From the NCBI GenBank assembly GCA_009924895.1, contig RFQR01000006.1, forward strand, positions 1,800 to 65,799: DNA of 64,000 bases. Reading direction: 5' to 3'. This document shows positions 9,696 to 55,358 of this stretch, piece after piece. Made by a program: the position numbers and the translations under genes. Within the stretch, counting starts at the first letter, position 1. Each line of letters starts with the position of its first letter. This DNA comes from a bacterium. Lineage in GTDB: Bacteria > Patescibacteriota > Minisyncoccia > Phycocordibacterales > UBA2100. Below the pieces are notes generated by a model. That model saw nothing but the letters and a program-made list of their open reading frames with translations. It made no database searches and was not told the origin of the DNA.

Positions 9696-9773
9696 ACCCT
9701 GTCGTGACAAGTGCTGCGAATCTACCGCCGGGTCTTTCGATGCTTCTTTTTACGATTTACGCGCTTTGTTTTT

Positions 9774-10382: not shown

Positions 10383-10530
10383 TTTGGCCCCACGATCACA
10401 CAGCTCACGGACTATTGCCAGGTGGCCCCTCTGCTCGCCGCCATCAGGGAAGTGTAGCCAGTATCATTCATAGCAGCATTCACGTTGGCCCCACGATCAC
10501 ACATCTCACGGACTATCTCCAGGTGGCCGT
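10125..10530. repeat. About 4.5 near-identical 99-bp tandem repeats, each encoding one 33-aa ankyrin repeat.
   Basis: cacgatcacacagctcacggactattgccaggtggcc recurs with 99-bp period. Confidence 0.85.
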
Positions 10531-10560
10531 TCCCACACGCTTCAAATAAAACCTCGTTAA
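10383..10560 (-). pseudogene. Frameshifted upstream continuation of the ankyrin gene.
   Basis: Ankyrin-coding repeats continue 5' of 10382, but one copy has gcgagcagaggg-gcc where the other copies have gcgagNNNNatgggccgc. This 1-nt loss gives TGG CAA TAG. No ATG precedes the region. Confidence 0.5.
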
Positions 10561-10648
10561 GCCTCGTTTGCTCTGCATTAGAAAGTCAAGGCATCTTTTT
10601 ATATTATATCTATAGACATTTTACCGCAGGGTCTTTCGATGCTTCTTT

Positions 10649-11712: not shown

Positions 11713-11878
11713 CGCAGCTAAAGGCCTACCGGTCTGATATTGCAGCTAAAGGCCTAAGCCTTTACATGAAATATAAGACCTACCGGTCTGATATTGCAGC
11801 TAAAGGCCTAAGCCTTTACATGAAATATAAGACCTATCGGTCTTATATTGCAGCTAAAGGCCTAAGCCTTTACATGAA
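11713..11878. repeat. Intergenic tandem repeat, 54-bp unit x about 3.
   Basis: cctaccggtctgatattgcagctaaaggcctaagcctttacatgaaatataaga repeated. Confidence 0.85.
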
Positions 11879-20570: not shown

Positions 20571-22124
20571 TTATAAAGCATATTTGAGCCCACCCATGCC
20601 TGATACCACTTCAAACCAGTTAATATTTTCCACGTAAATATCTATATCATATGTATATGTGGTATTTACAGGAAGGGGAAACACATCCAAGTCAACTTGG
20701 AAGTTACGAATACGACTTGCATTTATGGATCCTGAAGCTTGTGTAGGAGATTGAGCTAGTTGAAAAGAATACAGGGGGAGTCCGTCTTGTCCAATCCCCC
20801 TCGCATATCTATATGTCGAAATGCGTGTAAAATAATCGACGGGCTTTAGTTCCTGCATTTCATTCCCATCACATAATATGCGAATATTACGAATAATATC
20901 TTGCTGAGAGTTCGGAATGAAAAGACCTGACGTAGAAGATTGTTGAAGAACATTCAGAATATTTGGTGTAGGCGAAAAGGGTGCATACGGATATGTATAC
21001 CAGTTCGTAAAGTTTGCAAAATCATTGCGTGCAGCTGCATCAGACCTACGTTGAATAAATAGAATACGGCTGAGAGGATTATGTGTTTGCAAATCAATAA
21101 CTTGTCGCGTATATTGTCCTGGAAATGGATATATAGTAACTTGTGGAATCATATAGCTGAGGGGGCGCGTGGCAAAGATTTGCTGCTCCTCTTTTGGAAG
21201 ATAAATGAATGTTCCCTGCAGTATAGGGTTTATAAACCAACTGTTCAATGCCGGGACAGCGGCATTGATATCTGTGAGAAAATATCGTATTTGAGCTAAA
21301 CTAGTATTGGATACTGAATAGTTGGGTGTATTATTGCGTATTTGTTCCGATGTAGCATTCATTATAAAGTTTGGATTCACACGATATCCAGATGCATCGT
21401 TTACCGTGTATAGTTGTGAAATGGGGTTTAGTGTAAGGCGTATTTCACATTCATGAAGCTGCAGACCTATCAGAGGAAGGGCCTGCGAAGGAGCCTCCGT
21501 AAACCAGAAAGAAAGAGGAATATGAATATTACGCCCCATGATGGAAGGGCGATTTACCTGAGTTGCTGTAGTAGGATTTGTAATGACACTCGGATATCCT
21601 AGATGCATAGAACCACCGGCATATGCGCCCGATGCAGGCTCTGTAAGCTCAGGTGTATCCCCCACAAGATATTTCCATTTAAGAAAAGCATCTTGATCTA
21701 CATCAAGCAATGCACGACTTAATAAATAGGAGCCGTCAAACTCTTGAATCTTTTGACCCCCTACAAAAAATGCTGCGTTTTGAATAATGGATGCGCCTAT
21801 ATAGCGAACCCATTGAAACTCCCACTGAGATATACGGCCCGGTGGGGGTTGAGGCGTGATATATTTGCTATAAATATCGGGTATCGTAAATGTAAAAATC
21901 ATATCGGATAATAAATCACCATATCGAGGTATTTTTGCCCGGAGTTGTATCGGCTGATCGAACGAAAGTTCATTCGGCCCCTCTAAGGGAATTGTGATAC
22001 TTTCCATTGCAAAATGAGAATATCGCTTAAATGCCTTATAAAAATACGTCATTTGGGGATTGCCACTTAAAAGCACGTTTTGCGCACCATATGCAACTAA
22101 TGCTAATAATCCTCCACCGGCCAT
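20571..22124 (-). CDS. MCP: Major capsid protein (double jelly-roll, NCLDV MCP).
   Basis: From Met26, MAGGGLLALVAYGAQNVLLSGNPQMTYFYKAFKRYSHFAMESI matches PBCV-1 Vp54 / mimivirus MCP ([42 protein letters not shown]). Confidence 0.9.
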   Translation of the reverse strand: MAGGGLLALVAYGAQNVLLSGNPQMTYFYKAFKRYSHFAMESITIPLEGPNELSFDQPIQLRAKIPRYGDLLSDMIFTFTIPDIYSKYITPQPPPGRISQWEFQWVRYIGASIIQNAAFFVGGQKIQEFDGSYLLSRALLDVDQDAFLKWKYLVGDTPELTEPASGAYAGGSMHLGYPSVITNPTTATQVNRPSIMGRNIHIPLSFWFTEAPSQALPLIGLQLHECEIRLTLNPISQLYTVNDASGYRVNPNFIMNATSEQIRNNTPNYSVSNTSLAQIRYFLTDINAAVPALNSWFINPILQGTFIYLPKEEQQIFATRPLSYMIPQVTIYPFPGQYTRQVIDLQTHNPLSRILFIQRRSDAAARNDFANFTNWYTYPYAPFSPTPNILNVLQQSSTSGLFIPNSQQDIIRNIRILCDGNEMQELKPVDYFTRISTYRYARGIGQDGLPLYSFQLAQSPTQASGSINASRIRNFQVDLDVFPLPVNTTYTYDIDIYVENINWFEVVSGMGGLKYAL

Positions 22125-22208
22125 AGTCTCTTCTGAATCCTTACTGGAATAGAAGAGATTATGCTTAAGCGGTTTGGAACATTTGCGGGGTACTGGCAAA
22201 TGCCATAC

Positions 22209-24215: not shown

Positions 24216-24325
24216 ATTTCTCTACCGTGAAGTATCAAATTTAATATTCATGGCACTGTGGTTCACTATTTTATGCAGGGCAACTACATAAAATAGTAAA
24301 CGGCATAGATACGTCCCAAAAAGAC

Positions 24326-26527: not shown

Positions 26528-27676
26528 TCACGCCTTCCGCGTCTTTCTTTTTTTCATATCCCCATGTTCAGGATGAAATTGAATACGATCATAATATGCC
26601 TGTGTATCTTTCATTTTGCACCCACGTAGTTTTTCGCGCAAATAACATACAAACGAAATACGAGTAAACAGTTGGTCTCCACCCAATGTGCCCGTATCTG
26701 ATGAGTTGTTGTGTATTTTTGGAAGCGCCCTATTATATTTTTTATCAGCATCTGTTTCTATCATTTCGGTATTACAGTGCCATTCGTGCACATCCATTGC
26801 AAGAAAATCTCCCGTTCGCACATTAAATCCGATTTTATATCTCGGTAGAATTGTTGCTCCACCTGTATAACGACCCCGCTCAATTACAGACAGATTTCCA
26901 TACCCCTCTTTAAAATCCCCTGCATCTACATGTAGGGCTGTGCGAAAGTTTCTATTCACCGTAATCGATGAAAACGCCGTTTTAGTAATGCGATAGCGCG
27001 ATTTCTCAGAGGCAGCGGAAAGTTGTTTTGCATGTTTGTCCGGAATCAGGCGTTTAAATACGGAATCAATCGCCTCAATATAAGGTAATCCATGTTTATA
27101 TTGCTCGAAATACTTTTGTGTATAAGAAGTCAGGCGACATGGAAGGCCCATAAAAGGTGTTTCTTCGAAATATCCTAAGACGGAACTGAACACATTATTA
27201 TTCACGCGCATTTTGGAAAGTTTCCCGTTTTGTTTATACCTCGCAGACCAACCATTCACTTCCACAGGCTTCCGCTTTTTCCAATAGTTGGAATCATGTT
27301 GAATAGGCCCTGCAGCTGCTCCGCGATTTCGCGAGGATGCCGCCGTTTGATAATATGCTTCCCACCCGATTTTTATCAAATCATTCGGCAATACGTGTTT
27401 GCGAAAACGTGCGAGTAACTTCTTTTCGCCACTGGATGGATCGATACCGTATACATCTACATCCTCGTCCAGAATCTCATTCGCATCCTTTTCTGTAAAA
27501 TAGGTGCCCTCTCGCCCCTTTATTTCATCCTCCGTAAGCTGTGGCTTCAATGTTAGTTCGCGAACTTTCAGCTTTAACTCCTTTGCGTGACCTTCAGGTA
27601 TCTGCAACCCTTCATAGATTTCTGGCTTATAATGCTTTGCTTTTCGACTTACTCCTCTTTTTGAGTGTGCCACCAT
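26528..27676 (-). CDS. Hypothetical protein, possibly a 2OG-Fe(II) dioxygenase-like fold (HxD ... H motif).
   Basis: 382-aa ORF. TALHVDAGDF then ~45 aa later VHEWH, with a later TRISF (RxS-like). The functional call is weak. Confidence 0.35.
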   Translation of the reverse strand: MVAHSKRGVSRKAKHYKPEIYEGLQIPEGHAKELKLKVRELTLKPQLTEDEIKGREGTYFTEKDANEILDEDVDVYGIDPSSGEKKLLARFRKHVLPNDLIKIGWEAYYQTAASSRNRGAAAGPIQHDSNYWKKRKPVEVNGWSARYKQNGKLSKMRVNNNVFSSVLGYFEETPFMGLPCRLTSYTQKYFEQYKHGLPYIEAIDSVFKRLIPDKHAKQLSAASEKSRYRITKTAFSSITVNRNFRTALHVDAGDFKEGYGNLSVIERGRYTGGATILPRYKIGFNVRTGDFLAMDVHEWHCNTEMIETDADKKYNRALPKIHNNSSDTGTLGGDQLFTRISFVCYLREKLRGCKMKDTQAYYDRIQFHPEHGDMKKRKTRKA

Positions 27677-30068: not shown

Positions 30069-33000
30069 ATGTCTGTTGAAACACACACAGAAGATATTCT
30101 TCGGAAATGGCATACTCTTCCAATAGAAGAACGAGACAAACTTTTTGAAAAAGCCGGCGATATGGGCCTGTATCCTAGGGTCATGCGGGAAACAGATGCA
30201 TGGGAAGAATATGCCGGCCTTTATCCTGATACAGATGATCCGCGATTTATAGAAAAGTTGATGCGTAAACAGGAGTTTGCCGAAAATAGGCAAGAAAGTA
30301 TTGCAGAACAGAAAAAAAAGAATGTAAATCCGTGCGATCCTGAAAAGGAGTTTGAGTTAACACCGGTGCAGCGTTTTATAGGCCGGTATTTATCTCCTCA
30401 ATGCCCATATCAATCTGCATTACTTTATCACGGAGTAGGTGTTGGTAAAACGTGTGCAGCCATTACTGTCGCTGAAAACTTTTTAGCGACGTATCCTCGT
30501 AAACAAGTAATTATTATATCGCCTAGAAATATTCAGCCCGGATTTCGGAGAACTATATTTGACGACGAAGCTCTGCAAATAGGAGAGGGGGATACTCCTA
30601 ATACGGCAAAAGGGTGTACGGGAAATGGGTATTTGAAACGCACGGGAAGCGAGTTGGAACGCGACCGCGACGTAGTTATTCGGCGTATATCTCAATCCAT
30701 ACAGACACGGTATCTGTTCATGGGGTATATCCAGTTTCATAGAATGATTGATGATCTTATAAAACGAGTCCCAAAAGGGCTTGATGAAGAAGCGGCAATT
30801 ATGCAGCGGGATCGTATCCTTCGACGTGAGTTTGGCGGGCGTTTGGTGATTATTGATGAGGCGCACAATTTGCGTGATACTCCTGGTGAATCGATGGACG
30901 ATGATACAGATAATCCTGGGGGGGATATGGAGCTGACAGAGTCTCAGGCGGGTAAGAGATTAACACCGAGTCTCATAAAAGTGCTACATGCATCGGAAGG
31001 GATGAAACTTCTCTTAATGACAGGAACTCCCATGTATAACTCGTATAAGGAAATCATTTTTTTATTAAACCTCTTACTCATGAATGATAAGAAAGTGACT
31101 CTCTCCGAAAGGGATATTTTTACTCCGTTGACAGGGGCCTTTATAAAAGGGGAGCCTGGGCGAAAAAGTGGAAAGGAGATTCTGGGCGCTGCGGCGAATG
31201 CCTATGTTAGTTTCATGCGCGGTGAGAATCCTCTCTCCTTTCCTGTGCGCCTACAACCCATGAACACTCCTATATTGGATGCCTGGCCTGAGAATAGTCC
31301 CGACGCGAAGCCTATACCTGTAGAGCAACGCGAACGTATGACGCGACTTCCCATCATTCCAGTTTCGTTTGAAGGGGGGTCTATGAATGAATATTTGAAA
31401 ATTTCCGAAGAAGCCATTGAAGCCGGTGGCCTAGGTGTAGGGAGTATTGATGAAATGGTGCAATCCGGTAACTGGCTTTTTCCAACCGAGGGGGGAGTTC
31501 AGATTCGGGACGGGGGATTCGACGGGTGTTTTGAGGATGTAGGAGGAGTATCCCAGTTTCGTTCGCGCGGAAATAGTAGTTGGCTATTGCGCGAGAATCT
31601 TGGCACGGCATCTCCTAAAGCAAAGTTCACGCTGCAGCGCACACAAACCGCCAAAGGGGTGATTTTCATTTATAGTCGGTTTATTAAATCAGGGGCGCTT
31701 ACATTAGCACTCGCGCTAGAAGCAAATGGCTATACTCCTTGGGGAGATCGGAAACCACTTCTTATGAATGGTATTCAGGATGATCAGGGGCGTCAATGCG
31801 CTCTATGCCCGAAGCGTGAAAAGAATCATGGAGGTGCGGGGCATAAATTCATTCCGGCAAAATATATTCTGATTACGGGGCGTGCAAATCTGTCTCCCAA
31901 CAATGCAAAAGCAATTCAAGCCGCGCGGGCAAAAACGAATATGGATGGGCGCGAAGTTAAAATCATCATTGGCTCGCAAGTAGCATCCGAAGGCATTGAT
32001 TTCCGATTTGTGCGCGAAATATACGTATTTGACAGTTGGTTTCACCTGAATAAAATGGAGCAAGTGCTGGGTCGTGGGATTCGTACATGTTCACATTCAC
32101 TTATGGATGAGGATGAACGGAACTGCACGATTCACTTACTCGTAAACTCATTCGGCGGAGAGCAGGATACCGAAACAGCGGATATGTATATGTATCGGAA
32201 TGCAATGTCAAAAGCCATGCAAGTGGGGCGCGTGACACGTGTATTAAAGGAATATGCCCTCGATTGTAATCTGAATCGGGATGCCATTCTTGTCACCGGA
32301 TTAGCGACACAAAGACATGTAGACGCACAGGGGACGGTTCGCGAAGAAGTAAATATTAATGATACACCCTTTACAAATGTGTGCGATTGGATTGAAACGT
32401 GCGAGTATGAATGTGCAAAACCGGTGGATGCCGATACACCCCTTGATATGAGCAGTTATGATGATTATAGTGTAAAATGGCGAGAAAGTGAATTGCGGTC
32501 GGCTATACGAAAGATGTTTCAACAACGAGAACAACCCGTATTTTCATTGGAACACATACACGATATAATGAAGAAGATGTCTATTCCTACGAGGGCCGTT
32601 TCAGGATTGCTTGCAGATATTGTAGGAAATCCATCGTTTCGAGTCCAAATGCCTGTACACAAGTCGGGTAAAATGATTGATGGATATATTGTGTATCGGA
32701 ATGGATATTACATGTTCCAGCCAGATTATTTGAATGATATACGGGTTCCTTTGGCGCTTCGGGTAGCAGATGTACCTGTAAAACGAGATATGTTTGATCC
32801 CACAACTATAAAAGTAAAACCTCTTTCGGAGGCGGCTGCAAAGGCACCTGAACCAACTACGGCAGAAACCCCGTTGGTAGTCGCCCCTATCCAAGAGGGC
32901 ACTCTTCCTAGTTTTTGGCGAAACATTAAAGAATGGGCTATTGCCATTTCCGAGTCCAAAGCCCCCTTGGAAGATATTCCCGAATCCTTGCAAAAAGCGA

Positions 33001-33920
33001 TTTCAGAACGGTATGCAGGGGATGCAGAGTTCCGCGAAAATGATCAACTCATCATGATTAACTGGCTATATGAATACATTCATAAGTCTACGGAGTTTAC
33101 AGAAGAAAATCGCCGTAATTATTTGATAGCTTTATCGGAATCTCTTTTGGGAATGGTCTGGGATGAAAGTCTTCGACCCAATGAACAACTCCAACTCCTT
33201 TCAACGGACGACGCTATTGCAAATGCAATAGCAAAATCCGGTGGCCAAGTTCTTGTAAAGGGGGGGACTACGAGTTATCGTGTTATAGATATTTCTACAG
33301 GTGGTATGAAATACTATTGCGGAAAAGTGCCCTGTTCAGAGGCCGTGAGCCGAATCTTTGATACGAATGAGGCAGACCCCTTTCATACTCTAAAGGCAGA
33401 TTCGAGCACTACTGCGCCAATCTATGGGTTTATAGTTCCAAAAGGGAAGGAGGGTCGGCTTGTATTTAAAACAAATGAACGGCCTGTCCCCCCTGGAACA
33501 AAACCTGAAAAGGGGGGTGAATGCTCCATAGTAAGCACCATATCATTTCATATTCGCATGCTAAAAGATATTGCAAAGTTGATGGAAGCGGATGGATATC
33601 CTACATTTATCTTGAAAGATGAATATTTGGATGAAAAGGCTATCAAACGACGCCAAGAAAATGAGGCCAAGGAGGCCGCAAAAGCAGCCGGCAAAAAGTT
33701 TGAAAAGGAAATGATACTACCCCCTGTCCGAGCGACACAATATGCAAAAAAGGGGAAACATTTGTTCAAAACGCGCACATTTGAAAATGCCGTTCGAGCC
33801 TGTGCCTTGAAAAATATCATTTTACGTATGATTGATTTCTTACAAGTAAAAACGGGGGGAAGGCGATACTTTTATCGCCCAGTTGCTGCTTTGAAATCGG
33901 ACCATAAAGGGAGTAAGTAA
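30069..33920 (+). CDS. D6/D11-family SNF2-like helicase, VETF small-subunit (vaccinia D6R)-like, with a long C-terminal extension.
   Basis: YHGVGVGKTCAAI, VIIDEAHNLRD, LLMTGTPMYNS, VIFIYSRFIKSGALTLALALEANGY, GSQVASEGIDFRFVREIYVFDSWFHLNKMEQVLGRGIR. These parallel the vaccinia D6R motifs. Confidence 0.8.
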   Translation: MSVETHTEDILRKWHTLPIEERDKLFEKAGDMGLYPRVMRETDAWEEYAGLYPDTDDPRFIEKLMRKQEFAENRQESIAEQKKKNVNPCDPEKEFELTPVQRFIGRYLSPQCPYQSALLYHGVGVGKTCAAITVAENFLATYPRKQVIIISPRNIQPGFRRTIFDDEALQIGEGDTPNTAKGCTGNGYLKRTGSELERDRDVVIRRISQSIQTRYLFMGYIQFHRMIDDLIKRVPKGLDEEAAIMQRDRILRREFGGRLVIIDEAHNLRDTPGESMDDDTDNPGGDMELTESQAGKRLTPSLIKVLHASEGMKLLLMTGTPMYNSYKEIIFLLNLLLMNDKKVTLSERDIFTPLTGAFIKGEPGRKSGKEILGAAANAYVSFMRGENPLSFPVRLQPMNTPILDAWPENSPDAKPIPVEQRERMTRLPIIPVSFEGGSMNEYLKISEEAIEAGGLGVGSIDEMVQSGNWLFPTEGGVQIRDGGFDGCFEDVGGVSQFRSRGNSSWLLRENLGTASPKAKFTLQRTQTAKGVIFIYSRFIKSGALTLALALEANGYTPWGDRKPLLMNGIQDDQGRQCALCPKREKNHGGAGHKFIPAKYILITGRANLSPNNAKAIQAARAKTNMDGREVKIIIGSQVASEGIDFRFVREIYVFDSWFHLNKMEQVLGRGIRTCSHSLMDEDERNCTIHLLVNSFGGEQDTETADMYMYRNAMSKAMQVGRVTRVLKEYALDCNLNRDAILVTGLATQRHVDAQGTVREEVNINDTPFTNVCDWIETCEYECAKPVDADTPLDMSSYDDYSVKWRESELRSAIRKMFQQREQPVFSLEHIHDIMKKMSIPTRAVSGLLADIVGNPSFRVQMPVHKSGKMIDGYIVYRNGYYMFQPDYLNDIRVPLALRVADVPVKRDMFDPTTIKVKPLSEAAAKAPEPTTAETPLVVAPIQEGTLPSFWRNIKEWAIAISESKAPLEDIPESLQKAISERYAGDAEFRENDQLIMINWLYEYIHKSTEFTEENRRNYLIALSESLLGMVWDESLRPNEQLQLLSTDDAIANAIAKSGGQVLVKGGTTSYRVIDISTGGMKYYCGKVPCSEAVSRIFDTNEADPFHTLKADSSTTAPIYGFIVPKGKEGRLVFKTNERPVPPGTKPEKGGECSIVSTISFHIRMLKDIAKLMEADGYPTFILKDEYLDEKAIKRRQENEAKEAAKAAGKKFEKEMILPPVRATQYAKKGKHLFKTRTFENAVRACALKNIILRMIDFLQVKTGGRRYFYRPVAALKSDHKGSK

Positions 33921-33970: not shown

Positions 33971-34606
33971 ATGGAATACAATGCAGTGTTTGAAGAACAG
34001 ATTGCCTTAACGCCCAAAGATATGCGGATGAAGATTGATTCGATTGAAACAGTTCTTCAAAATAAACTGCAGGCAAAACTGGAGGGGCGTTGTTCACGGG
34101 ATGGTTTTGTTCAACCCGGCACAATAAAAGTTCTTTCGAGGTCCATGGGACATTTGGAAAAGGGGCTCTTCACGGGAAGTATACTCTTTCACATTCAAGC
34201 GGAAGGAAGTGTCTTAAATCCCCCCGACGGAACCGTTTTAGAAGGTGAAGTTATACGAAAAAATAAAATGGGGATTTACGTCTCATATAAAGATGCTATT
34301 CGTGTGATTATTCCTCGCGATCTACATATCGGTGATGAAGCGTTTGAGGCCGTCGAGATTGGTCAAACGGTGGAAGTAGAAATCAAAAAGTCCCGCTTTC
34401 AGGTGAATGACCCATATATTCTGAGCGTGGGTATGTTCCGGTCTGTCATCGGAGCTGCCCCCGCTCCCGCAAAGAATGTGGTCAAACCGATACCTGTGAA
34501 GACGGTTCCTAGCCCCGAGGATACAGAGGAAGACTCGGATGAAAATGAGTTGGCAGATGCATTTGCCGCGGAAGAGGATGATACAGCAGAGAAAGAAGTA
34601 GAATAG
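33971..34606 (+). CDS. RNA polymerase subunit Rpb7/E'-like (RNP + S1-like) with an acidic tail.
   Basis: N-terminal pattern L.P......I...L...L...LEGRCS.DGFV plus a central beta-rich S1-like region. The call comes from overall pattern only. Confidence 0.45.
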   Translation: MEYNAVFEEQIALTPKDMRMKIDSIETVLQNKLQAKLEGRCSRDGFVQPGTIKVLSRSMGHLEKGLFTGSILFHIQAEGSVLNPPDGTVLEGEVIRKNKMGIYVSYKDAIRVIIPRDLHIGDEAFEAVEIGQTVEVEIKKSRFQVNDPYILSVGMFRSVIGAAPAPAKNVVKPIPVKTVPSPEDTEEDSDENELADAFAAEEDDTAEKEVE

Positions 34607-34607
34607 A

Positions 34608-34907
34608 ATGAGTGCTGCCGCCGCTGCATTATCAAATGCAGAATATGATGAACGTAGAAAAGCATTAGAGTATATTCGAACACTATCTAAATCAGAACTG
34701 GAGGAAATTTATAAAATCCTGAAAAATGCAAAAGCCGAGTTTAGCGAAAATAGCAATGGAGTTTTTTTTGATCTTTGTAAACTTCCGGCGGACGTCTTTG
34801 CTGAACTTCAAAAGTTTATTGAGTTCTGCAATAAGATGCGCGACGACTTTGCTTTACGAGAGGAAGAGGAACGAAAGGCGCAAGAAGCCCTTGATAGGGA
34901 CAGCTGA
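34608..34907 (+). CDS. Small hypothetical protein.
   Basis: 99-aa ORF directly abutting the previous stop. Confidence 0.3.
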   Translation: MSAAAAALSNAEYDERRKALEYIRTLSKSELEEIYKILKNAKAEFSENSNGVFFDLCKLPADVFAELQKFIEFCNKMRDDFALREEEERKAQEALDRDS

Positions 34908-34941
34908 CCCTACTAAAGCTCTCCCGCTATTCCATATAGGA

Positions 34942-35706
34942 ATGGAAGTGTTACGCAGAATTCAAACATGGGCTACACAGAATCCCCATCGGACGCTCAA
35001 AGTGTTTCCGATAGAGATTTCCGTGGTATCGGATACACAGGAAGGGCATGAGGCGCCTGCGACCCTCCCTGGAGGCTGGTCACCTACACCTCTCGAGCCA
35101 CCTGGACCCGTGAGTCTATATCTGTGGAAGACGAATCCCGAATTCCGGGCGGCCACACCGCCTGTTCGTAGAACCATTCTGCGTGATATGATTTTAAAGA
35201 TTACGGAGAGGGCGGATGCGGAGCTTCGTGGTATTAAATGGCAGCGCAAAAAGATTTTAGAGCAGGTTGCGGCACAGCAGACGTCTGCTGTCTCGCCACC
35301 TATGGATACACATGAGCTCGATATTGGAATGTGTGCCTTGTTTGGATATCAAAAAGTGTCTGTGGATGAGGCGAATAAGAAGGTGCGATTTTTTCCCGCG
35401 GATCCACGGACGTGGTCTACGGAACTTCCCGTCTGGGGAGGCACGGCTGGGTCTCGTGCCGTTCTTCATGCCAGGGGAGAGTCTTCTGTAGGTGTTGGAA
35501 TTGCCGCATGGGTTGGTGACAGGGAACGCGAAGGATGGAAGATTGATTGGCCCGAGGCGGAAGGGACCCTGGAAGAGATTAAAAGTAAAATGGCCCAGCG
35601 CGGGACGGGTTTAGGGCCACGATTAGATAAACCGAAAAAGGCAGATTGGGCGGCCGCGTTAGGACGTGCGGAGGCTATTGCGGCGTTGGGAAAAGTATAT
35701 ATCTAA
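34942..35706 (+). CDS. Hypothetical protein in a locally GC-richer stretch.
   Basis: ORF 34726..35706 trimmed to the Met at 34942. Confidence 0.4.
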   Translation: MEVLRRIQTWATQNPHRTLKVFPIEISVVSDTQEGHEAPATLPGGWSPTPLEPPGPVSLYLWKTNPEFRAATPPVRRTILRDMILKITERADAELRGIKWQRKKILEQVAAQQTSAVSPPMDTHELDIGMCALFGYQKVSVDEANKKVRFFPADPRTWSTELPVWGGTAGSRAVLHARGESSVGVGIAAWVGDREREGWKIDWPEAEGTLEEIKSKMAQRGTGLGPRLDKPKKADWAAALGRAEAIAALGKVYI

Positions 35707-35713
35707 AATAGAG

Positions 35714-36097
35714 ATGCCTATATCACCTAATCAATTACAAAAAGGCCATACATATACTTTAGTTGGAATAAGGGGAAAGAAAGTAACGAATGTAGAAAAA
35801 GACTGTACATATAAGGGTCTTTCACCTGAAACTACAACATTTCGTAGGTTTACAGATAATAGTGGTAAAACGTTTGCATATGAAGAATACCATTATGATA
35901 AGCGACAGGAGATTGACTATGGTTATAAATTTTATATGAACAATGATACAGATATTCCAACGGTGGGTGAGACGATAAGGGCAAGTAGTGTGCCCAAACC
36001 TCGAACTCATTCACGCTCTCGATCAAAGACACGACGCAGTAAGTCAAAGACTGGTGGAGGAACGTTGCGATTGAAAAAAGAAAAGAGAACCCACTAA
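35714..36097 (+). CDS. Small protein with a basic SR-rich tail ending SKTGGGTLRLKKEKRTH.
   Basis: Shares its last ~15 codons and its 3' flank with the ankyrin gene at 36318..37070. Confidence 0.4.
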   Translation: MPISPNQLQKGHTYTLVGIRGKKVTNVEKDCTYKGLSPETTTFRRFTDNSGKTFAYEEYHYDKRQEIDYGYKFYMNNDTDIPTVGETIRASSVPKPRTHSRSRSKTRRSKSKTGGGTLRLKKEKRTH

Positions 36098-36180
36098 TTT
36101 AATACGCGAACATCATTCCGCCCCGCCCACCATACACACGAAATATGTTATACGTTTCTGCCCACACATAAACTAGGTAT
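36000..36180. repeat. Copy 1 of a dispersed ~125-180-bp module (coding tail plus 3' flank).
   Basis: ggaggaacgttgcgattgaaaaaag...taatttaatacgcgaacatcattccgccccgcccaccatacacacgaaatatgttatacgtttctgcccacaca. Confidence 0.8.
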
Positions 36181-36317
36181 CTCGGCACATTATATGTGGT
36201 GGTATATCCAGCCAAGGAAGATTTTTTTGTTTTTTTTAAGGTCGGTAATGCTATTCGATTTTACCATTACCGGCAGCCCTAATCTGCGGATTTTTAATAA
36301 AGCGGTACATATAGAAA

Positions 36318-37070
36318 ATGCCTGGTTCTAATAACTCCTCGAAGAACCTGGATGAACAACTTTTAAAAGCAATTGCAAGTGATGAATATGGTAAGGAGAA
36401 CAATAATGAGATTCAAGAGCTTATAGATGAGGGGGCCGACGTGAATGCTGAGGATAAGGATGGCTTCACCGCTCTGATGATAGCGACTCACGAGGGCAAA
36501 TTGGAGGTCTTCTATAAGCTGTATAGACTAGGTGCCAAAGTGGATGCTAAGAGTAAGGATGGCATCACCGCTTTGATGGTAGCGAGTGCGACGGGCAATG
36601 AGGTTATCGTGAAGTATCTGTGTGACAATGAGCGTGATCCCGATGTGAATGCTAAGAGTAAGGATGGCTACACTGCTCTGATGTTTGCCTGTGAGAGTGA
36701 GAAGGGCGACCTAGAAATAGTCCGTGAGCTGTTAAAAGCGGGAGCAGACCCAAGATTAAAAAATAAGAAAGGAATAAGCGCATATTTCTTAGCAAAAAAA
36801 CCAGCCATTATAGAACTATTATCAGAAAGAATACATGAATTATTCAATAAATTTCCAAATAATAATGGGAATGAGAAGAATAATGGGAATAATAATGGGA
36901 ATGAGAATCTATTAGAAAAGGTGTACCCCCCACAAATTGTGACTAGGTCACCCGAACTAGCTAATAAACGTAAAAGCTTTCTAGCCAGATTATTCGGTAA
37001 GAAAAGTGGAGGAACGTTGCGATTGAAAAAAGGAAAGAGAACATTGAAAACAAGAAAGAGAACCCGCTAA
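36318..37070 (+). CDS. Ankyrin-repeat protein with an Asn-rich tract and the shared GGTLRLKKGKRT tail.
   Basis: DGFTALMIATHEGKLEV..., DGITALMVASATGNEV..., DGYTALMFACESEKG... Confidence 0.7.
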   Translation: MPGSNNSSKNLDEQLLKAIASDEYGKENNNEIQELIDEGADVNAEDKDGFTALMIATHEGKLEVFYKLYRLGAKVDAKSKDGITALMVASATGNEVIVKYLCDNERDPDVNAKSKDGYTALMFACESEKGDLEIVRELLKAGADPRLKNKKGISAYFLAKKPAIIELLSERIHELFNKFPNNNGNEKNNGNNNGNENLLEKVYPPQIVTRSPELANKRKSFLARLFGKKSGGTLRLKKGKRTLKTRKRTR

Positions 37071-37262
37071 TTTAATACACGAACATCATTCCGCCCCGCC
37101 CACCATACACACGAAATATGTTATACGTTTCTGCCCACACAAAAACTTGGAATACAACTTGCACAAAGGGCAGGTGGTGCGCGTAGAACTCGAACTCATT
37201 CACGCTCTCAATCAAAGACTCGCAAGCCTCGCTCTCATTCAAGAACTCGCCGTTCCAAAAAT
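37000..37262. repeat. Copy 2 of the same module, with a 21-bp insertion and the SR-tail segment transposed downstream.
   Basis: Near-identical sequence at 37000-37148. The cgaactcattcacgctctc...segment reappears at 37187-37260 in no ORF. Confidence 0.8.
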
Positions 37263-37461
37263 AGTATCTAACCAATATTCTCCAAAGTTATAGTTTGGAT
37301 ATCTGTGATGTAATATATATAGAACCAGATATAATACGTTACAATCGATGTCAGTCTTAAGGTAAGAATACTCCTCGAGTGTTCTTACCTTTAGCACTTG
37401 CTAGTAAAATTGGCTAGGACACCCAAAGCTAAAACGATACAAGGTATTAGAACTCGGTCCT

Positions 37462-40400
37462 ATGGAACTCTTTTCAGCGGAGGCCGAAAATATTAAGAAA
37501 AAAGTGGAAGAATGGATTACACATCCCGAATATGAGCTGGAGGCAACATTTGGCGCAACAGGAGAGGTGGATTCCACCACCTTTCTGGCGGTGGCTCAGC
37601 GGCTTCGTGCCAAAGGGTATGCGTCCCTTCCCCAAGAAGATCGCCTTACAGTTATCACCCCGGAACACGTGCGCTTCACTATAACAAGTCTTGGAGTTAT
37701 TCAGGCCTATTGTAAGGATGATACGATGACCGGTAAGCCTTATACTGTCATGATTAAAGACCGTGCCACCGCCGACGCGCAGATTGATTTGGAAGATTAT
37801 GATACGCGCATTAAAGTTCGTCGAGAGCGTGATATGGCGCAAACAGATGCATCCGTGAAAAAGCTATTAGAAACATGGGCTCAACAACGCAAGGCGTTTC
37901 GTATGATTCGGCGCTGGTCGTTTCATTCCGATGGTATTCGTATTGACATGTCTATTGTGAGGGCGACTGCGAAGCTGCGGAGTGGGGAGTTCCGATGGCA
38001 GCGCGCCTTTCGCGATCAGGATGTCATGATGAACGCCCCCAACTATGAGATTGAAGTCGAGTTGGAGCATCTTCCGGGTGATACGGCGGATATTGCGATG
38101 AAGCGGCTCATTCGCGGTATTGGCGAAGTGCTTCGCGGAATTCAAAAGAATACCGTTCTCATTCGCAAAGAAACGCGGAAGAAAGTTCTTGCAGCCTACC
38201 GCGAGTTGACTGGTTCCGATCTCTTCCGTGGCCCCGCCTTGCGCACACTTCGAAAGGAGAACTTTGTCAAAGAGCGAACTGCTAAGACGCCGAATATACG
38301 CGATGGCTATAATGTGACGGACAAGGCGGATGGACTTCGTTGCATGGGTTTCGTAGACGCAAAAGGAGACTTGTATCTCATTGACATGGGAATGAATGTG
38401 TATAGAACAGGTCTTCGCAATCTTGCACTGCGCCTGTCTCTTGTAGATGGTGAATGGGTAACGCAGACAAAGGATGACCCGCCCAAACCTATGCAGCAGT
38501 TTCTAGTCTTTGATATTCTATATATGACGGATAAACGGAATGTGAGTCAGTTTCCATTTGAAGCTGGCGCAACGCTTCTAGTAGAGGGAGAACCGCCTCC
38601 TATTGCACCTCCTCCAGAAGACAGCCGACATTACCAGCTCAAATCCTGGATTACCACATGGAATAAGGACGAGGGGCCGAAAGTTATGACTCCTGGGTTG
38701 ACGCCTACAACAAAACTCCAGGTTGCCGCAAAAGAATACTTCTTTGCAAAGGCGGGGAATGATAGTATCTTTCGTATGGCGGCGCGAGTATTGGCGGCCG
38801 CAAGACCCTATTATACAGACGGTCTCATCTTTACTCCCAATGCGCTACCTCTTCCTGAACGCCCTGCCGCCACCTTTTGGGAACAGTTCAAATGGAAGCC
38901 GGCCGAAGATAATACAATTGACTTTCTGGTGGTGACAGAGAAACAAACAGGTTCTAAAACACAGGATAAGGTGATTGCAGGAATCAAACCAGGTCCGTCT
39001 GCTGAAACAGTGAACTATAAGACACTTCGTTTATACGTGGGTTCTAATACGGAAAATGCGCGTGATATTATTCTGAATCGGCGTGATATGCCCAAACGCG
39101 ACCGCACGCCGTATGGGGCAAAAGGAAAGAAAGAATATAAGCCTGTTATATTTACACCCAAAGAGTTTCCAGATCCTATGGCGGCCATATGTCGTCTTCC
39201 TATTCAAACCGACCCTGATACGGGAGAGCAATATATTATGACAGAAGACACGGAAGAACCTATACAAGATAAAACGATTGTGGAAATGGCATATGACCCG
39301 GCGCAACCTCCTGGATGGCGCTGGAAGCCCCTACGAGTGCGTATGGATAAAACGGAGCGTCTACAGCGGGGGACGCTGAGTCGAACTCTCAATTCAGAGG
39401 GAGTGGCAGAGGATGCGTGGAATAGTATTCACGACCCAGTCACGGCATCCATGATTAAAACGGGTGCGGATCAGCCAACGGACGAGGAGATGGCGGCTAT
39501 TCGTCGTGATTCGTCGGGTTCTGCGCGTAAATACTTTGACCGCGAAGAGCCTGTTATCGACGAGGCCTTGGTAGAGGGTATGAAGAAGTTTCATGGGCGT
39601 TATATTCGCGGAGAGATTCTCTATAGGGCGGGGCTGTCCGGTGGAAAAACGCTGATGGATGTAGCGTGCGGAGTTGCAGGGGATCTTCATAACTGGATGC
39701 GCGCAGGAGTTGATTTCGTTCTGGGGATTGATTATGCTGCGAAAAATATAATGGACTCGCACGACAGTGCCTATACACGCTATATGAATCTGGCGATTGA
39801 AAGGGGGGGATTGGATTCCATTCCACCCATGGTGTTTGCGATTGCAGATTCCACAAAACCATTGGTGGATGGAACTGCGGGAAATAATGAACAAGAGAAA
39901 GATATTCTGCGTTCCGTCTTTGGAAAAGTGAAGCCAGCCGGCTCTGTTCCAGCGTATGTAGAGGAAGTGGGTGCGTCAAAACTGAAGATGGGGGCAGATT
40001 GTATTACATGTATGTTTGCCATCCACTATTTCTTTGAAACGCCTGATAAACTAAATGGGTTCTTGGAAAATCTGTCGCAGACGTTAAAAGTGGGCGGATA
40101 TTTCATTGGATGCTGTTTTGATGGGCAAAAAGTGTTTGATATATTACGCGAAGTTCCAAAGGGGAAGTCTAAAACAGGGATGGAGGGAGATACCGTTTTA
40201 TGGGAGATTACAAAACAATATGATGCAGAAGATATCCCAGAGGGTTCTGAAGCTATTGGTCTAGGTGTAGATGTGAATTTCATTTCGATTGGTATGCCAC
40301 ATCGCGAATATCTTGTGCCCTTTCGCCTGTTAGAAGATAAGATGCGACTGATCGGTTGCGATCTTCTTACAACTGACGAATTGAAGAAACTCGGATTGGT

Positions 40401-41394
40401 GAACTCGACAGCGACGTTTGATGTGTCATGGGATATGGCAAAAAAGAATGGCACTACGTATAAAATGAATACGGCAGTGAAAGAGTTTTCCTTCTTAAAT
40501 CGGTGGTTCATCTTCAAGCGAAAGCGCCAGGAGACGGTGGTAATAACGGAAGTAGCACAAAAGGAGGTGACTCCTATACAATCAAATCTAGGAAGAATGG
40601 GTGCGGCGAGGGCCAGGGCAAGTGCCGTGGCAAAGGCGGCAAATACAATACAGGGGCAGGCGCCAGAAAAGTCACAGGGGCAGACGCCAGAAACAAATGA
40701 TATGCCCGCTTCAAGGACGGTTGGTGTCGCCCCAGGCCCTGCCACACCCCCCGCAAAGAGCTATACGATAGGCGAAGTCTTCCAGTTCTATTCCGATGCT
40801 CCTACTGCAAAAGATATTCTTGGAATAGAGGATAAAGGTGCCGCTCGCTGGCTATCGCCTTCTGCTCCCTTTCCTATCAAAGATGGCGACGTGCAATATC
40901 CATCCATGGAACATTATATGGGGGGTATGCGCGTAAAACTTGCCACAAATAAGCCTGAACTTGCAGAGAGTATGTTTAGTCGAGAAGGAACTATACATCA
41001 ACGCTTTCTGAATGATCGCCTTGGTATGACAAACGGTGGAACAAAACAGCTGACCGAAGAACAGGACCATGATATAATGAATGCAGAACTCGCCGCCGTG
41101 AAAGCGGCAATGGGGGTTCTCTCCCTGAAACGACACCGCGCTACAGTGGATGAAGCTACGTGGGCCACTGTAAAAGACAAAGTGATAGAGGATGCATTAA
41201 AACAACGGTGGACATTGGACAAGCGCTTTCGCAAAATCGTTGAGACTGCGCGTAACCAAGGAAAGTATCTCTTATATTATAGCCCTGGGGCTACGACAAA
41301 CTTGGGTGGAAGACGTGATAAAGACACGGGCCACATCGATGGGGAAAATAGGATTGGAAAGGCGATTATGAAACTTGCGGGGTATCCTGAATAA
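37462..41394 (+). CDS. Trifunctional mRNA capping enzyme (TTM RNA triphosphatase, guanylyltransferase, cap N7-methyltransferase) with an additional C-terminal NADAR/YbiA-like domain.
   Basis: EYELEATFG (triphosphatase), KADGLR (KxDG GTase lysine), VLDVACGVAGDLHNW (SAM motif I). C-terminal FQFYSDAP...WLSPSAPF...YPSMEHYMGGMRVKLA matches the DUF1768/NADAR signature. Confidence 0.9.
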   Translation: MELFSAEAENIKKKVEEWITHPEYELEATFGATGEVDSTTFLAVAQRLRAKGYASLPQEDRLTVITPEHVRFTITSLGVIQAYCKDDTMTGKPYTVMIKDRATADAQIDLEDYDTRIKVRRERDMAQTDASVKKLLETWAQQRKAFRMIRRWSFHSDGIRIDMSIVRATAKLRSGEFRWQRAFRDQDVMMNAPNYEIEVELEHLPGDTADIAMKRLIRGIGEVLRGIQKNTVLIRKETRKKVLAAYRELTGSDLFRGPALRTLRKENFVKERTAKTPNIRDGYNVTDKADGLRCMGFVDAKGDLYLIDMGMNVYRTGLRNLALRLSLVDGEWVTQTKDDPPKPMQQFLVFDILYMTDKRNVSQFPFEAGATLLVEGEPPPIAPPPEDSRHYQLKSWITTWNKDEGPKVMTPGLTPTTKLQVAAKEYFFAKAGNDSIFRMAARVLAAARPYYTDGLIFTPNALPLPERPAATFWEQFKWKPAEDNTIDFLVVTEKQTGSKTQDKVIAGIKPGPSAETVNYKTLRLYVGSNTENARDIILNRRDMPKRDRTPYGAKGKKEYKPVIFTPKEFPDPMAAICRLPIQTDPDTGEQYIMTEDTEEPIQDKTIVEMAYDPAQPPGWRWKPLRVRMDKTERLQRGTLSRTLNSEGVAEDAWNSIHDPVTASMIKTGADQPTDEEMAAIRRDSSGSARKYFDREEPVIDEALVEGMKKFHGRYIRGEILYRAGLSGGKTLMDVACGVAGDLHNWMRAGVDFVLGIDYAAKNIMDSHDSAYTRYMNLAIERGGLDSIPPMVFAIADSTKPLVDGTAGNNEQEKDILRSVFGKVKPAGSVPAYVEEVGASKLKMGADCITCMFAIHYFFETPDKLNGFLENLSQTLKVGGYFIGCCFDGQKVFDILREVPKGKSKTGMEGDTVLWEITKQYDAEDIPEGSEAIGLGVDVNFISIGMPHREYLVPFRLLEDKMRLIGCDLLTTDELKKLGLVNSTATFDVSWDMAKKNGTTYKMNTAVKEFSFLNRWFIFKRKRQETVVITEVAQKEVTPIQSNLGRMGAARARASAVAKAANTIQGQAPEKSQGQTPETNDMPASRTVGVAPGPATPPAKSYTIGEVFQFYSDAPTAKDILGIEDKGAARWLSPSAPFPIKDGDVQYPSMEHYMGGMRVKLATNKPELAESMFSREGTIHQRFLNDRLGMTNGGTKQLTEEQDHDIMNAELAAVKAAMGVLSLKRHRATVDEATWATVKDKVIEDALKQRWTLDKRFRKIVETARNQGKYLLYYSPGATTNLGGRRDKDTGHIDGENRIGKAIMKLAGYPE

Positions 41395-52482: not shown

Positions 52483-53010
52483 ATGACTAGGGATATGGCA
52501 TTTTGGGAAGATATTGAATGGAAAGCATGGTTACGAGAGTATGTCACTTGGAAGAATGAGCAGATTCCACGACATGCAGCTATTCGTCATTTTTGTAATG
52601 AACTTTGTATATTTCTTCATTTCCATGGCTATTTCTTACGTGTCAATCGCAATACACTGAAATCACATATAGCGACTGGATTATATAACAGTCGAACATC
52701 GTGTAATATAACACACTGGATATTCGGAGAACAAGATGCGGACTATCAGCATAAAGTATATTTTGCACACGTGATTGATTCTACGGAATGGAACAAATTC
52801 TGGAACACATCCGCAAAATGGTGCGATCTAGATGCGAATGTTCTATATGGTCTTGAACGTCAATATTGTATTGAACATTATGTTTGGACACAGCTAGATT
52901 TAGGTATATCAAAACATACACGAACGGTGAATGAATTATTAGGCTTAGATGATGATATAATATCAGAAAATGAAAATCATGACACGATATTCCAAGATAT
53001 GAATGATTAA
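52483..53010 (+). CDS. Hypothetical His/Trp-rich protein.
   Basis: ORF 52438..53010 trimmed to the Met at 52483. Confidence 0.4.
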   Translation: MTRDMAFWEDIEWKAWLREYVTWKNEQIPRHAAIRHFCNELCIFLHFHGYFLRVNRNTLKSHIATGLYNSRTSCNITHWIFGEQDADYQHKVYFAHVIDSTEWNKFWNTSAKWCDLDANVLYGLERQYCIEHYVWTQLDLGISKHTRTVNELLGLDDDIISENENHDTIFQDMND

Positions 53011-55267: not shown

Positions 55268-55358
55268 TAATAACACTACCGTTTAATAGCACTGCCGTTT
55301 AATAGCACTGCCATTTAATATTTTATTTACTTATACTGCAAGTAAATAAAATATTAAA
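55268..55358. promoter_or_regulatory. 16-bp x 3 tandem repeat followed by a ~17-bp-stem AT-rich palindrome, between the 3' end of 55409..55924 and the 5' end of the oxidoreductase gene.
   Basis: aatagcactgccgttt units; taatattttatttact / agtaaataaaatatta inverted repeat. Confidence 0.5.

What the first reader, a model, noticed from the sequence alone, without database searches (positions are those of the whole stretch)
36000..37262. Two adjacent genes share a duplicated, rearranged 3' module (coding tail GGTLRLKK.KRT plus ~90 bp of 3' flank).
The small SR-tailed protein (35714..36097) and the ankyrin protein (36318..37070) both end with ...GGTLRLKK(E/G)KRT. The nearly identical sequence taatttaatacgcgaacatcattccgccccgcccaccatacacacgaaatatgttatacgtttctgcccacaca follows each. 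In copy 2 the SR-tail-coding segment of copy 1 (PRTHSRSRSK...) reappears downstream and out of frame. This indicates a recent segmental duplication plus rearrangement. A shared C-terminal peptide and 3' UTR could be a common localisation or packaging signal, or a transcript 3'-end processing element.
Basis: seen in the sequence. Interest (0 to 1): 0.55.

Follow-up and report, generated by a model that had tools for sequence, protein, structure and literature searches.

The report
Ankyrin gene insertion carrying capsid-gene scrap
The repeated "tail plus flank" is the normal end of a giant-virus ankyrin gene together with a scrap of the neighbouring capsid gene (read backwards), left twice when an ankyrin gene cassette was copied into the end of a small gene; it is a recombination scar, not a signal.

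Summary
The repeat is real. Two copies lie in the 64-kb window, with none expected by chance, and two further assemblies reproduce them. It is not a shared 3' UTR or terminator.

What the pieces are:
- **Coding tail.** GGTLRLKK.KRT... is the conserved native C-terminus of a family of ankyrin proteins in this giant-virus (NCLDV) lineage.
- **"3' flank".** This is the reverse complement of the last 22-38 codons plus stop of a major-capsid-protein paralogue. In related contigs (L003, L004, L007) that full-length gene lies tail-to-tail, 1 nt from the ankyrin stop.

What happened:
- L002, whose flanks are 95-100% identical to the window, has neither an ankyrin gene nor the module here.
- Its small gene runs uninterrupted into an SR tail, a hairpin and the capping-enzyme gene.
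- The window therefore carries a ~1.1-kb insertion inside the small gene's SR-tail coding region. Its order is ankyrin-3'-end + capsid scrap, filler/hairpin, promoter + complete short ankyrin gene, ankyrin-3'-end + capsid scrap.
- A 57-nt duplicated piece of the small gene (84% identical) flanks the insertion.
- The small protein's new tail is a chimeric capture. Its original 3' end (37166-37270) is orphaned.

The flank does not fold, whereas real intergenic hairpins lie elsewhere. This is an ordinary "genomic accordion"-type rearrangement, so interest is low.

The parts
35714..36097 (+). Small gene, now chimeric. It has a conserved N-domain, a shortened SR stretch and a captured ankyrin-type tail (GGGTLRLKKEKRTH*).
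   Evidence: The ORF is. It is identical to the NCBI protein EBR66_03340, and its orthologue P0002 (53% identity) ends in a pure SR tail. The alignment to L002 breaks at about 36053.
35977..36033 (+). A: left copy of the duplicated target segment of the small gene (linker plus start of the SR tail).
   Evidence: It is 84% identical to 37166-37222. The corresponding segment is single-copy in L002.
36054..37165 (+). The inserted DNA as a whole, about 1.1 kb. It is absent from the close relative L002.
   Evidence: The MAFFT and blastn comparisons of the window with L002 show flanks 95-100% identical and a gap at 36054-37201.
36055..36097 (+). B (copy 1): a 3'-end fragment of an ankyrin-family gene. 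It has one 21-nt basic repeat unit and is fused in frame to the small gene.
   Evidence: It is 97% identical to L003 5261-5296 and L001 291-326.
36098..36217 (-). C (copy 1): a fragment of a major-capsid-protein paralogue, comprising the stop plus the last 38 codons (LAGYTTTYNVPRYLVYVWAETYNIFRVYGGRGGMMFAY*). It has no start codon.
   Evidence: The minus-strand translation is. It is 97.3% identical to L007 2093-2240. The full-length homologue hits Pfam Capsid_N and Capsid_NCLDV, and its C-terminus aligns to the C-terminus of PBCV-1 MCPv1.
36218..36281 (+). T-rich filler (36218-36240) and a hairpin (36241-36274). This is the likely 3'-end signal for the chimeric small gene.
   Evidence: No match was found elsewhere. 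The hairpin folds at -14.5 kcal/mol, z -3.4.
36282..36317 (+). Upstream (promoter/leader) region of the ankyrin gene, carried in with the cassette.
   Evidence: Window 36282-36334 is 100% identical to L003 1015-1067, which lies upstream of and runs into ankyrin gene 1.
36318..37070 (+). Short ankyrin-repeat gene (250 aa) with its native basic tail.
   Evidence: It hits the Pfam Ank families. Orthologues P0005 (84%) and P0006 (76%), and more distant family members, all carry the tail.
37007..37070 (+). B' (copy 2): the native ankyrin 3' end with two 21-nt repeat units (GGTLRLKKGKRTLKTRKRTR*).
   Evidence: It is 98% identical to L003 3165-3221 and continuous with L007.
37071..37165 (-). C' (copy 2): a shorter capsid-paralogue fragment. 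It has the stop plus 22 clean codons (VWAETYNIFRVYGGRGGMMFVY*), and the distal ~25 nt are decayed.
37166..37270 (+). A' plus the orphaned original 3' end of the small gene. In the SR frame it reads ...RTRTHSRSQSKTRKPRSHSRTRRSKNSI*.
   Evidence: It aligns to the 3' end of the L002 small gene (...RKPRSHSRNGRSK*) and is continuous with downstream DNA that is 99-100% identical.
37356..37394 (+). A strong hairpin conserved in L002. This is the original 3'-end signal of the small gene, now downstream of the ankyrin gene.
   Evidence: The arms are 18 nt. It folds at -24.9 kcal/mol, z -5.6, and is present in L002.

Best explanation
The duplicated module is a gene-end junction copied from another locus of the same virus lineage.

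**Native locus.** There, an ankyrin-repeat gene ends with a conserved basic tail (GGTLRLKK[G/E]KRTLKTRKR..*). It meets a major-capsid-protein paralogue tail-to-tail, with the two stop codons 1 nt apart.

**The insertion.** A segment about 1.15 units long landed inside the SR-tail coding part of a small, fast-evolving gene. The segment reads:
- ankyrin 3' end + 120 nt of capsid 3' end;
- filler and a hairpin;
- ankyrin promoter + complete short ankyrin gene;
- ankyrin 3' end + about 95 nt of capsid 3' end.

About 57-79 nt of the target was duplicated around it.

**Consequences.**
- The small ORF now runs in frame into the left partial ankyrin tail, so it has a chimeric C-terminus.
- Its old SR end is stranded downstream of the ankyrin gene.
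- Two promoter-less capsid-gene scraps lie antisense in the two 3' flanks.

**Shown versus inferred.** The identity of each piece, the empty site in a relative and the donor-type locus are shown. The mechanism is inferred: either replication-associated template switching or non-homologous insertion of a piece of a tandem (accordion) or concatemeric ankyrin array, probably using short microhomologies. It is also inferred that the flank has no function of its own and that the hairpins at 36241-36274 and 37356-37394 are the real transcript-end signals.
For: 1. **Repeat verified.** It is present twice and reproduced in other assemblies.
2. **The flank is a capsid-gene tail.** On the minus strand it equals the 3' end of a 516-aa ORF in L001, L003 and L004. 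That ORF hits Capsid_N (1e-20) and Capsid_NCLDV (3e-8), and its C-terminus aligns with the PBCV-1 MCPv1 C-terminus. Nucleotide identity is 96-97%.
3. **The tail is native to ankyrins.**
   - Two large ankyrins in L003 end with it.
   - So do orthologues P0005 and P0006 of the short ankyrin.
   - Seven more distant homologues keep LKK.KRTLKT.KR as invariant or near-invariant columns.
4. **Native context.** In L007 the short ankyrin orthologue lies immediately tail-to-tail with the capsid paralogue. L007 1323-2203 matches window 36283-37153 at 90.8%.
5. **Empty site.** L002 is 95-100% identical on both sides and lacks 36054-37201. Its small gene ends ...RKPRSHSRNGRSK*, which matches the orphan at 37166-37270.
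6. **No structure or RNA family in the flank.** It folds at z +1.4 and +1.5 and has no Rfam hit. Strong hairpins occur in other intergenic spacers.
7. **Precedent.** Ankyrin gene expansions in a giant virus disrupt coding sequences and carry fragments of essential viral genes (Bodo saltans virus, PMC5871332).
Against: - **The copies are not identical.** A and A' are only 84% identical, and the two B-C copies differ by a 21-nt indel and several substitutions, although L002 and the window differ by only about 1% in the flanks.
  - So either the event predates the split and L002 carries a different or reverted allele, or the small-gene region has been exchanged between diverged strains.
  - The small gene has dS 0.21, against 0-0.11 in its neighbours.
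- **Terminal redundancy unexplained.** The B-C repeat at both ends of the insert has no demonstrated source. No donor with a tandem [ankyrin + capsid scrap] array was found.
- **Whole genome not available.** It is unknown whether the native ankyrin/capsid locus still exists in this genome, that is, whether this was a duplication or a relocation.
- **No expression data.** A cis-role for the retained capsid-antisense stretch in forming the ankyrin mRNA 3' end is not excluded.
Confidence: 0.82

Rival explanations
1. The shared module is a functional cis or peptide signal. The flank would be a common transcript 3'-end processing or termination element (or packaging signal), and the basic peptide a common localisation signal deliberately shared by both proteins.
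For: - The 58-nt core is identical in both copies.
- The basic tail is strongly conserved in the ankyrin family, so the peptide itself probably has a function there. It looks like a nuclear localisation signal (NLS); this is inference only.
- In the native locus the ankyrin mRNA must end inside the antisense capsid sequence, because the two stop codons are 1 nt apart.
Against: - The flank is protein-coding capsid sequence on the other strand, which explains its conservation in the native locus.
- It has no significant structure (z +1.4 and +1.5) and no Rfam hit.
- It is not found after any other gene in 64 kb.
- Copy 2 is already decaying at its distal end.
- Hairpins typical of giant-virus 3'-end signals lie further downstream.
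- The small-gene orthologue in L002 lacks the peptide.
Confidence: 0.08
2. The ~1.1-kb insert is a mobile genetic element, either a non-autonomous transposon or a cargo-carrying element, that integrated with a target-site duplication.
For: - There is an empty site in a near-identical relative.
- Direct repeats of target DNA (A and A') flank the insert.
- The insert has direct terminal repeats, B-C and B'-C'.
Against: - There are no terminal inverted repeats and no transposase or integrase ORF.
- A target duplication of 57-79 nt is far longer than transposases make; this rests on general knowledge.
- The terminal repeats are recognisable pieces of two ordinary genes with a fixed native locus.
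- No other copies were found in the window or in the IMG/VR, JGI or GTDB pattern scans, other than the native junction.
Confidence: 0.06
3. The polarity is reversed, or there were several steps. The cassette would be old and L002 would have lost it by recombination between A and A'. Alternatively, the two B-C copies arose in situ by a later local tandem duplication and deletion rather than arriving together.
For: - A and A' (84%) and B-C and B'-C' differ more than the window and L002 backbones do.
- The 57-nt direct repeats are substrates for deletion.
- The native ankyrin locus itself varies by recombination between ankyrin tails (L003, L012 and L007).
Against: - This does not change what the pieces are.
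- The intact small-gene tail in L002 matches the orphan end, so a contiguous small gene is ancestral in any case.
- No intermediate arrangement was found.
Confidence: 0.15
4. The arrangement is a metagenome misassembly that threads two loci together through a repeat.
For: - The source is a metagenome bin labelled 'bacterium'.
- The Logan unitig breaks exactly at the 58-nt exact repeat.
Against: - The junctions are novel sequences with no shared k-mers between the parent loci: SR -> B, C -> T-rich filler, C' -> A'.
- The two copies are diverged, not collapsed.
- An independently produced ENA scaffold is 100% identical across all junctions.
- The Logan unitig spans the interior.
Confidence: 0.02

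Closest known systems
Ankyrin-repeat gene expansion by recombination ('genomic accordion') in giant viruses, e.g. Bodo saltans virus (PMC5871332) and the accordion model (PMC4468942)
   Same: - An ankyrin gene is copied to a new place by non-homologous or illegitimate recombination.
- The copy disrupts a neighbouring coding sequence.
- It drags along a fragment of an essential viral gene.
- Ankyrin repeat number and gene number vary between close relatives (L003, L007, L012).
   Different: - Here it is a single interstitial insertion in a core-gene region (between RNA-polymerase subunit and transcription-related genes and the capping enzyme), not a terminal tandem array.
- The essential-gene fragment (capsid) is antisense and outside the ankyrin ORF, not fused to its 5' coding region.
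- The recipient gene gains the ankyrin tail in frame.
Hairpin-type mRNA 3'-end signal of Mimiviridae and Pithovirus ('hairpin rule'; PMC4402537, citing Byrne et al. 2009)
   Same: The window has strong palindromic hairpins in its longer intergenic spacers. Two of them lie downstream of the two genes in question, at 36241-36274 and 37356-37394.
   Different: The shared flank itself is not such a hairpin (z > +1). Whether this virus actually uses the hairpin rule has not been tested.
NCLDV major capsid protein paralogues (double jelly-roll; Pfam PF16903 and PF04451; PBCV-1 MCP variants, PDB 8h2i)
   Same: The flank encodes, on the minus strand, the conserved C-terminal strand motif (...YNIFRVYGGRGGMMFAY*). 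This aligns to ...FNILRIAAGMGGLAFA of PBCV-1 MCPv1.
   Different: In the window only 38 and 22 codons remain, with no start codon. They are pseudogene scraps, not capsid genes.
Chimeric genes created by segmental duplication or template switching (FoSTeS/MMBIR-type complex rearrangements); named from general knowledge
   Same: - There is a templated insertion from another locus.
- Target sequence is duplicated at the return point.
- The result is an in-frame fusion creating a new C-terminus.
   Different: The mechanism is not demonstrated here. The microhomologies at the junctions are short and ambiguous.

Membership tests
Segmental (duplicative) insertion / accordion-type rearrangement | Two or more copies of a DNA segment, more similar than chance allows | tested here: met
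   There is a 58-nt exact core and 93% identity over 111 nt, and none of 100 shuffles gave a match.
Segmental (duplicative) insertion / accordion-type rearrangement | An empty site in a close relative | tested here: met
   L002 has flanks 95-100% identical and lacks 36054-37201.
Segmental (duplicative) insertion / accordion-type rearrangement | An identifiable donor-type locus | tested here: met
   L007, L003, L001 and L004 all show an ankyrin gene tail-to-tail with a full-length capsid paralogue. Whether the donor persists in this same genome could not be tested.
Transposable element (TIR transposon or MITE) | Terminal inverted repeats and/or a transposase, with a short target-site duplication | tested here: not met
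   There are no inverted repeats at the insert ends and no transposase-like ORF. The flanking duplication is 57-79 nt.
Hairpin 3'-end / terminator element | A stable palindromic hairpin in the element, more stable than shuffled sequence | tested here: not met
   The shared flank folds at z +1.40 (copy 1) and +1.49 (copy 2). For contrast, 37340-37410 folds at z -5.6 and 36236-36280 at z -3.4.
Known structured RNA family (Rfam) | A covariance-model match | tested here: not met
   There were no matches at E <= 1 in 35500-37600.
NCLDV major capsid protein gene | Homology to Capsid_N and Capsid_NCLDV, with a complete ORF | tested here: not met
   Homology of the fragment to the 3' end of a bona fide capsid paralogue is met. 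The window copies, however, are fragments of 38 and 22 codons without a start codon. They are capsid-derived, not capsid genes.
Ankyrin-repeat family with a conserved basic C-terminal tail | Ankyrin repeats plus the LKK.KRTLKT.KR tail conserved among homologues | tested here: met
   The window ankyrin meets this (Pfam; ten-sequence alignment). The small protein has the tail but no ankyrin repeats, so it is not a member, only a chimera.
Nuclear-localisation-type or other targeting peptide | Demonstrated targeting activity of the basic tail | not testable with these tools
   Only the basic composition and conservation are seen.

The most novel reading that the evidence does not exclude
The ankyrin tail plus its antisense-capsid flank could act as a portable 3' cassette. 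Recombination would graft a conserved basic targeting peptide (for nuclear or virion localisation), together with the sequence needed to end the mRNA, onto unrelated genes. That would be exon-shuffling-like modular evolution in a giant virus.

Under this reading the small SR protein's new tail is adaptive rather than a scar.

A weaker variant follows from the reading frame. The ankyrin ORF and the orphan SR tail share a frame and are separated by one TAA, so read-through would make an ankyrin-SR fusion protein.
Probability: 0.08. Interest if true: 0.5.

Novelty: new member of a known kind. Interest (0 to 1): 0.22.

Why it matters
- **Worked example.** It shows, at base-pair resolution, how giant-virus genomes remodel genes. 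An ankyrin cassette moves, brings a piece of its convergent neighbour, breaks a recipient gene and gives that gene a new in-frame C-terminus.
- **Annotation caution.** Conserved "3' UTR" repeats next to genes can be antisense fragments of coding sequence. Identical C-terminal peptides on unrelated proteins can be fusion scars.
- **Limits.** It opens no new mechanism or long-standing question.

Tried and rejected
- **Hairpin or terminator in the shared flank.** Folded on both strands; no structure beyond shuffles.
- **Known RNA family.** None found.
- **Dispersed repeat family.**
  - Only two copies lie in the window.
  - Pattern scans of IMG/VR, JGI metagenomes and GTDB genomes returned only the native ankyrin/capsid junction (L001, L003) or nothing.
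- **Relatives of the small protein in IMG/VR.** None found.
- **Tail-only protein search.**
  - A 57-aa query returned only one partial ankyrin. The word-indexed search is not suited to short basic tails.
- **Poly-T run as a general terminator.** T7+ runs are not enriched in intergenic DNA.
- **Retrotransposition.** No poly(A) is present at the appropriate end of either copied transcript unit. The T-rich tract lies at the 5'-truncated side of the capsid scrap. This was judged from the sequence.
- **Donor is the window's own main capsid gene (20571-22199).** There is no nucleotide similarity.
- **Donor with a tandem [ankyrin + capsid scrap] array.** Not found.
- **Simple tandem-duplication scenarios.** None reproduces the order A-B-C-ankyrin-B'-C'-A' in fewer steps than a single complex insertion.

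Full report
**Context.** The window is from a nucleocytoplasmic large DNA virus.
- It encodes a tripartite mRNA capping enzyme (37462-41394), a D6/D11-like helicase (30069-33920), an Rpb7-like S1 protein and a BET-domain protein.
- It also encodes topoisomerase II, a major capsid protein (20571-22199, minus strand) and an intein-containing Rpb1.
- NCBI holds the small protein of the finding as 'hypothetical protein EBR66_03340 [bacterium]' on a 71-kb contig.

**Observation.** The repeats exist as described. I call the pieces A, B and C.
- A is the SR-coding segment: 35977-36033, repeated at 37166-37222 with 84% identity.
- B is the coding tail: 36055-36097, repeated at 37007-37070.
- C is the flank: 36098-36217, repeated at 37071-37165.
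  - The two C copies share an exact 58-mer.
  - That 58-mer occurs only twice in the window, and in none of 100 shuffles.
- The order is A-B-C in copy 1 and B'-C'-A' in copy 2.
- B' has two 21-nt units (KKGKRTL KTRKRTR) and B has one.
- The downstream SR segment is in the same frame as the ankyrin ORF, behind its stop codon. It is not out of frame.
- The region is identical in an independent ENA scaffold, and a Logan unitig spans its interior.

**What the flank is.**
- A 30-mer from C hit one IMG/VR contig, L001. There C is the reverse complement of the 3' end of a 516-aa ORF.
- That ORF matches Pfam Capsid_N (1.3e-20) and Capsid_NCLDV (3.4e-8).
- The same locus occurs in L003 (JGI) and L004 (NCBI GCA_009918235.1).
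- The C-terminus of this capsid paralogue (...YLVHVWAETYNIFRVYGGRGGMMFAY*) aligns with the C-terminus of PBCV-1 MCPv1.
- On the minus strand, window copy 1 reads LAGYTTTYNVPRYLVYVWAETYNIFRVYGGRGGMMFAY* and copy 2 reads VWAETYNIFRVYGGRGGMMFVY*.
- Neither copy has a start codon, and the distal end of copy 2 is decayed.
- So the 'shared 3' flank' is a capsid-gene scrap read backwards.

**What the tail is.**
- In L003 two large ankyrin genes (725 and 639 aa) both end in ...NPLSFGGTLRLKK(G/E)KRTLKTRKR..*. The second lies tail-to-tail with the capsid paralogue, with the stop codons 1 nt apart.
- The window's 250-aa ankyrin has orthologues P0005 (84%) and P0006 (76%) with the same tail.
- More distant homologues (43-65%) end in GGGKLKK(G/R)KRTLKK(G/R)KRTLKTKKRR.
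- The columns LKK.KRTLKT.KR are invariant or nearly so in a ten-sequence alignment.
- In L007 the short ankyrin orthologue lies directly tail-to-tail with the capsid paralogue.
  - L007 1323-2203 matches window 36283-37153 at 90.8%.
  - L007 2093-2240 matches window 36070-36217 at 97.3%.
- Window 36282-36334 (upstream region plus first codons) is 100% identical to the start of L003 ankyrin 1.
- The native locus itself varies among relatives. L003 has two large genes, L012 has a short and a large gene, and L007 has a short gene only. This is consistent with recombination among ankyrin repeats and tails.

**What happened in the window.** The only homologue of the small protein, P0002 (53% identity), lies on L002.
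- L002 is 95-100% identical to the window on both sides (34461-35700 and 37262-39351).
- It has no ankyrin gene and no module.
- Its small gene ends ...RKPRSHSRNGRSK* and is followed by the conserved hairpin and the capping-enzyme gene.
- The window's 37166-37270 reads, in the SR frame...RTRTHSRSQSKTRKPRSHSRTRRSKNSI*. That is the orphaned original end of the small gene.
- Hence about 1.1 kb (36054-37165) is inserted into the SR-tail coding region, flanked by a duplicated target segment (A and A').
- The insert is B-C, T-rich filler plus hairpin, ankyrin promoter, ankyrin gene, B'-C'. That is roughly 1.15 units of an [ankyrin + capsid-scrap] unit.
- The small ORF enters B in its native frame, giving the chimeric tail GGGTLRLKKEKRTH*.

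**Function of the flank.**
- Neither copy of C folds better than shuffles (z +1.40 and +1.49), and neither does the antisense strand. There is no Rfam match.
- Strong hairpins occur at 37356-37394 (z -5.6, conserved in L002) and 36241-36274 (z -3.4).
- Further strong hairpins lie in other long intergenic spacers: 11801-11872, 24261-24301 and 55314-55358 (z -6 to -9).
- These resemble the hairpin 3'-end signals described for Mimiviridae and Pithovirus (PMC4402537).
- I infer that the hairpins, not C, mark the transcript ends. This has not been tested.

**Mechanism (inferred).**
- There are no terminal inverted repeats and no transposase, and no retrotransposition signature.
- The long target duplication and the composite, terminally redundant insert fit one of two routes:
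  - replication-associated template switching; or
  - non-homologous insertion of a piece of a tandem or concatemeric ankyrin array.
- Bodo saltans virus provides a precedent. Its ankyrin expansions disrupt coding sequences and carry fragments of essential genes (PMC5871332).

**Open points.**
- A and A' are only 84% identical, and the small gene is far more diverged from L002 than its neighbours. It has dN = dS = 0.21, against dN <= 0.01 and dS 0-0.11 in the neighbours.
- So the locus is either an old allele exchanged between strains or a hypervariable spot.
- No donor tandem array was found.
- It is unknown whether the native locus persists in this genome.

**Verdict.** The 'duplication plus rearrangement' reading is right. 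The 'shared signal or UTR' reading is not supported. This is an ordinary recombination scar in a giant-virus genome and a new instance of a known kind of event, so interest is low.

Noticed in passing
window 35714-36097 compared with L002 1275-1682: The small gene is hypervariable. Its dN and dS are both 0.21 in the N-domain (omega about 1) and it has a 14-codon indel. The adjacent genes, in otherwise 95-100% identical backbones, have dN 0-0.01 and dS 0-0.11.
   Followed up: partly
window 11801-11872, 24261-24301, 55314-55358, 37356-37394, 36241-36274: Strong palindromic hairpins lie in the longer intergenic spacers (z -3.4 to -9.2). They resemble the 'hairpin rule' mRNA 3'-end signals of Mimiviridae. 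T7+ runs are not enriched in intergenic DNA.
   Followed up: partly
window 36318-37270: The ankyrin ORF and the orphaned SR tail are in the same frame. They are separated by the single stop TAA at 37068-37070, with 66 further sense codons up to the TAA at 37268-37270. This is probably chance, because the antisense of coding sequence tends to stay open, but read-through would give an ankyrin-SR fusion.
   Followed up: partly
L003 1051-5324; L007 1353-2120; L012 33-1348: The ankyrin locus next to the capsid paralogue differs between close relatives. L003 has genes of 725 aa and 639 aa, L012 has a 245-aa gene plus a large one, and L007 has a single 255-aa gene. The L007 and window tail looks like a hybrid of the tails of ankyrins 1 and 2, suggesting crossover within the conserved tail.
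   Followed up: partly
L003 4660-5200: Ankyrin gene 2 carries about five tandem 114-nt (38-aa) repeats (NPLSALVNPLVKKSNGEDLPPFIPNGNNTKKRNHTKVL) before the basic tail.
   Followed up: no
window 58524-63944 (-): The RNA polymerase Rpb1 gene is interrupted by an intein with a LAGLIDADG homing-endonuclease domain.
   Followed up: no
window 37462-41394 (+): The 1310-aa capping enzyme has a weak C-terminal match to the NADAR domain, below the Pfam cut-off.
   Followed up: no
whole window: The public record labels the source bin 'bacterium' (EBR66_03340). The gene content is clearly that of a nucleocytoplasmic large DNA virus.
   Followed up: partly
window 9774-10382 (-): A second ankyrin-repeat ORF is 74-80% identical at nucleotide level to the L003 ankyrins but lacks the basic tail. 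The ORF map around it (9704-10877) looks fragmented, so it may be a decaying ankyrin gene.
   Followed up: no
window 36218-36240: A T-rich filler (AAGATTTTTTTGTTTTTTTTAAGG) sits at the junction between the capsid scrap and the hairpin. It contains the only intergenic T7+ runs in the window and has no match anywhere searched.
   Followed up: partly
window 26528-27676 (-) and 53007-54233 (-): A Tet/JBP-family dioxygenase hit appears in the precomputed annotation of the identical ENA scaffold. A protein with an extracellular Link (Xlink) domain is also present. Both are unusual viral cargo.
   Followed up: no
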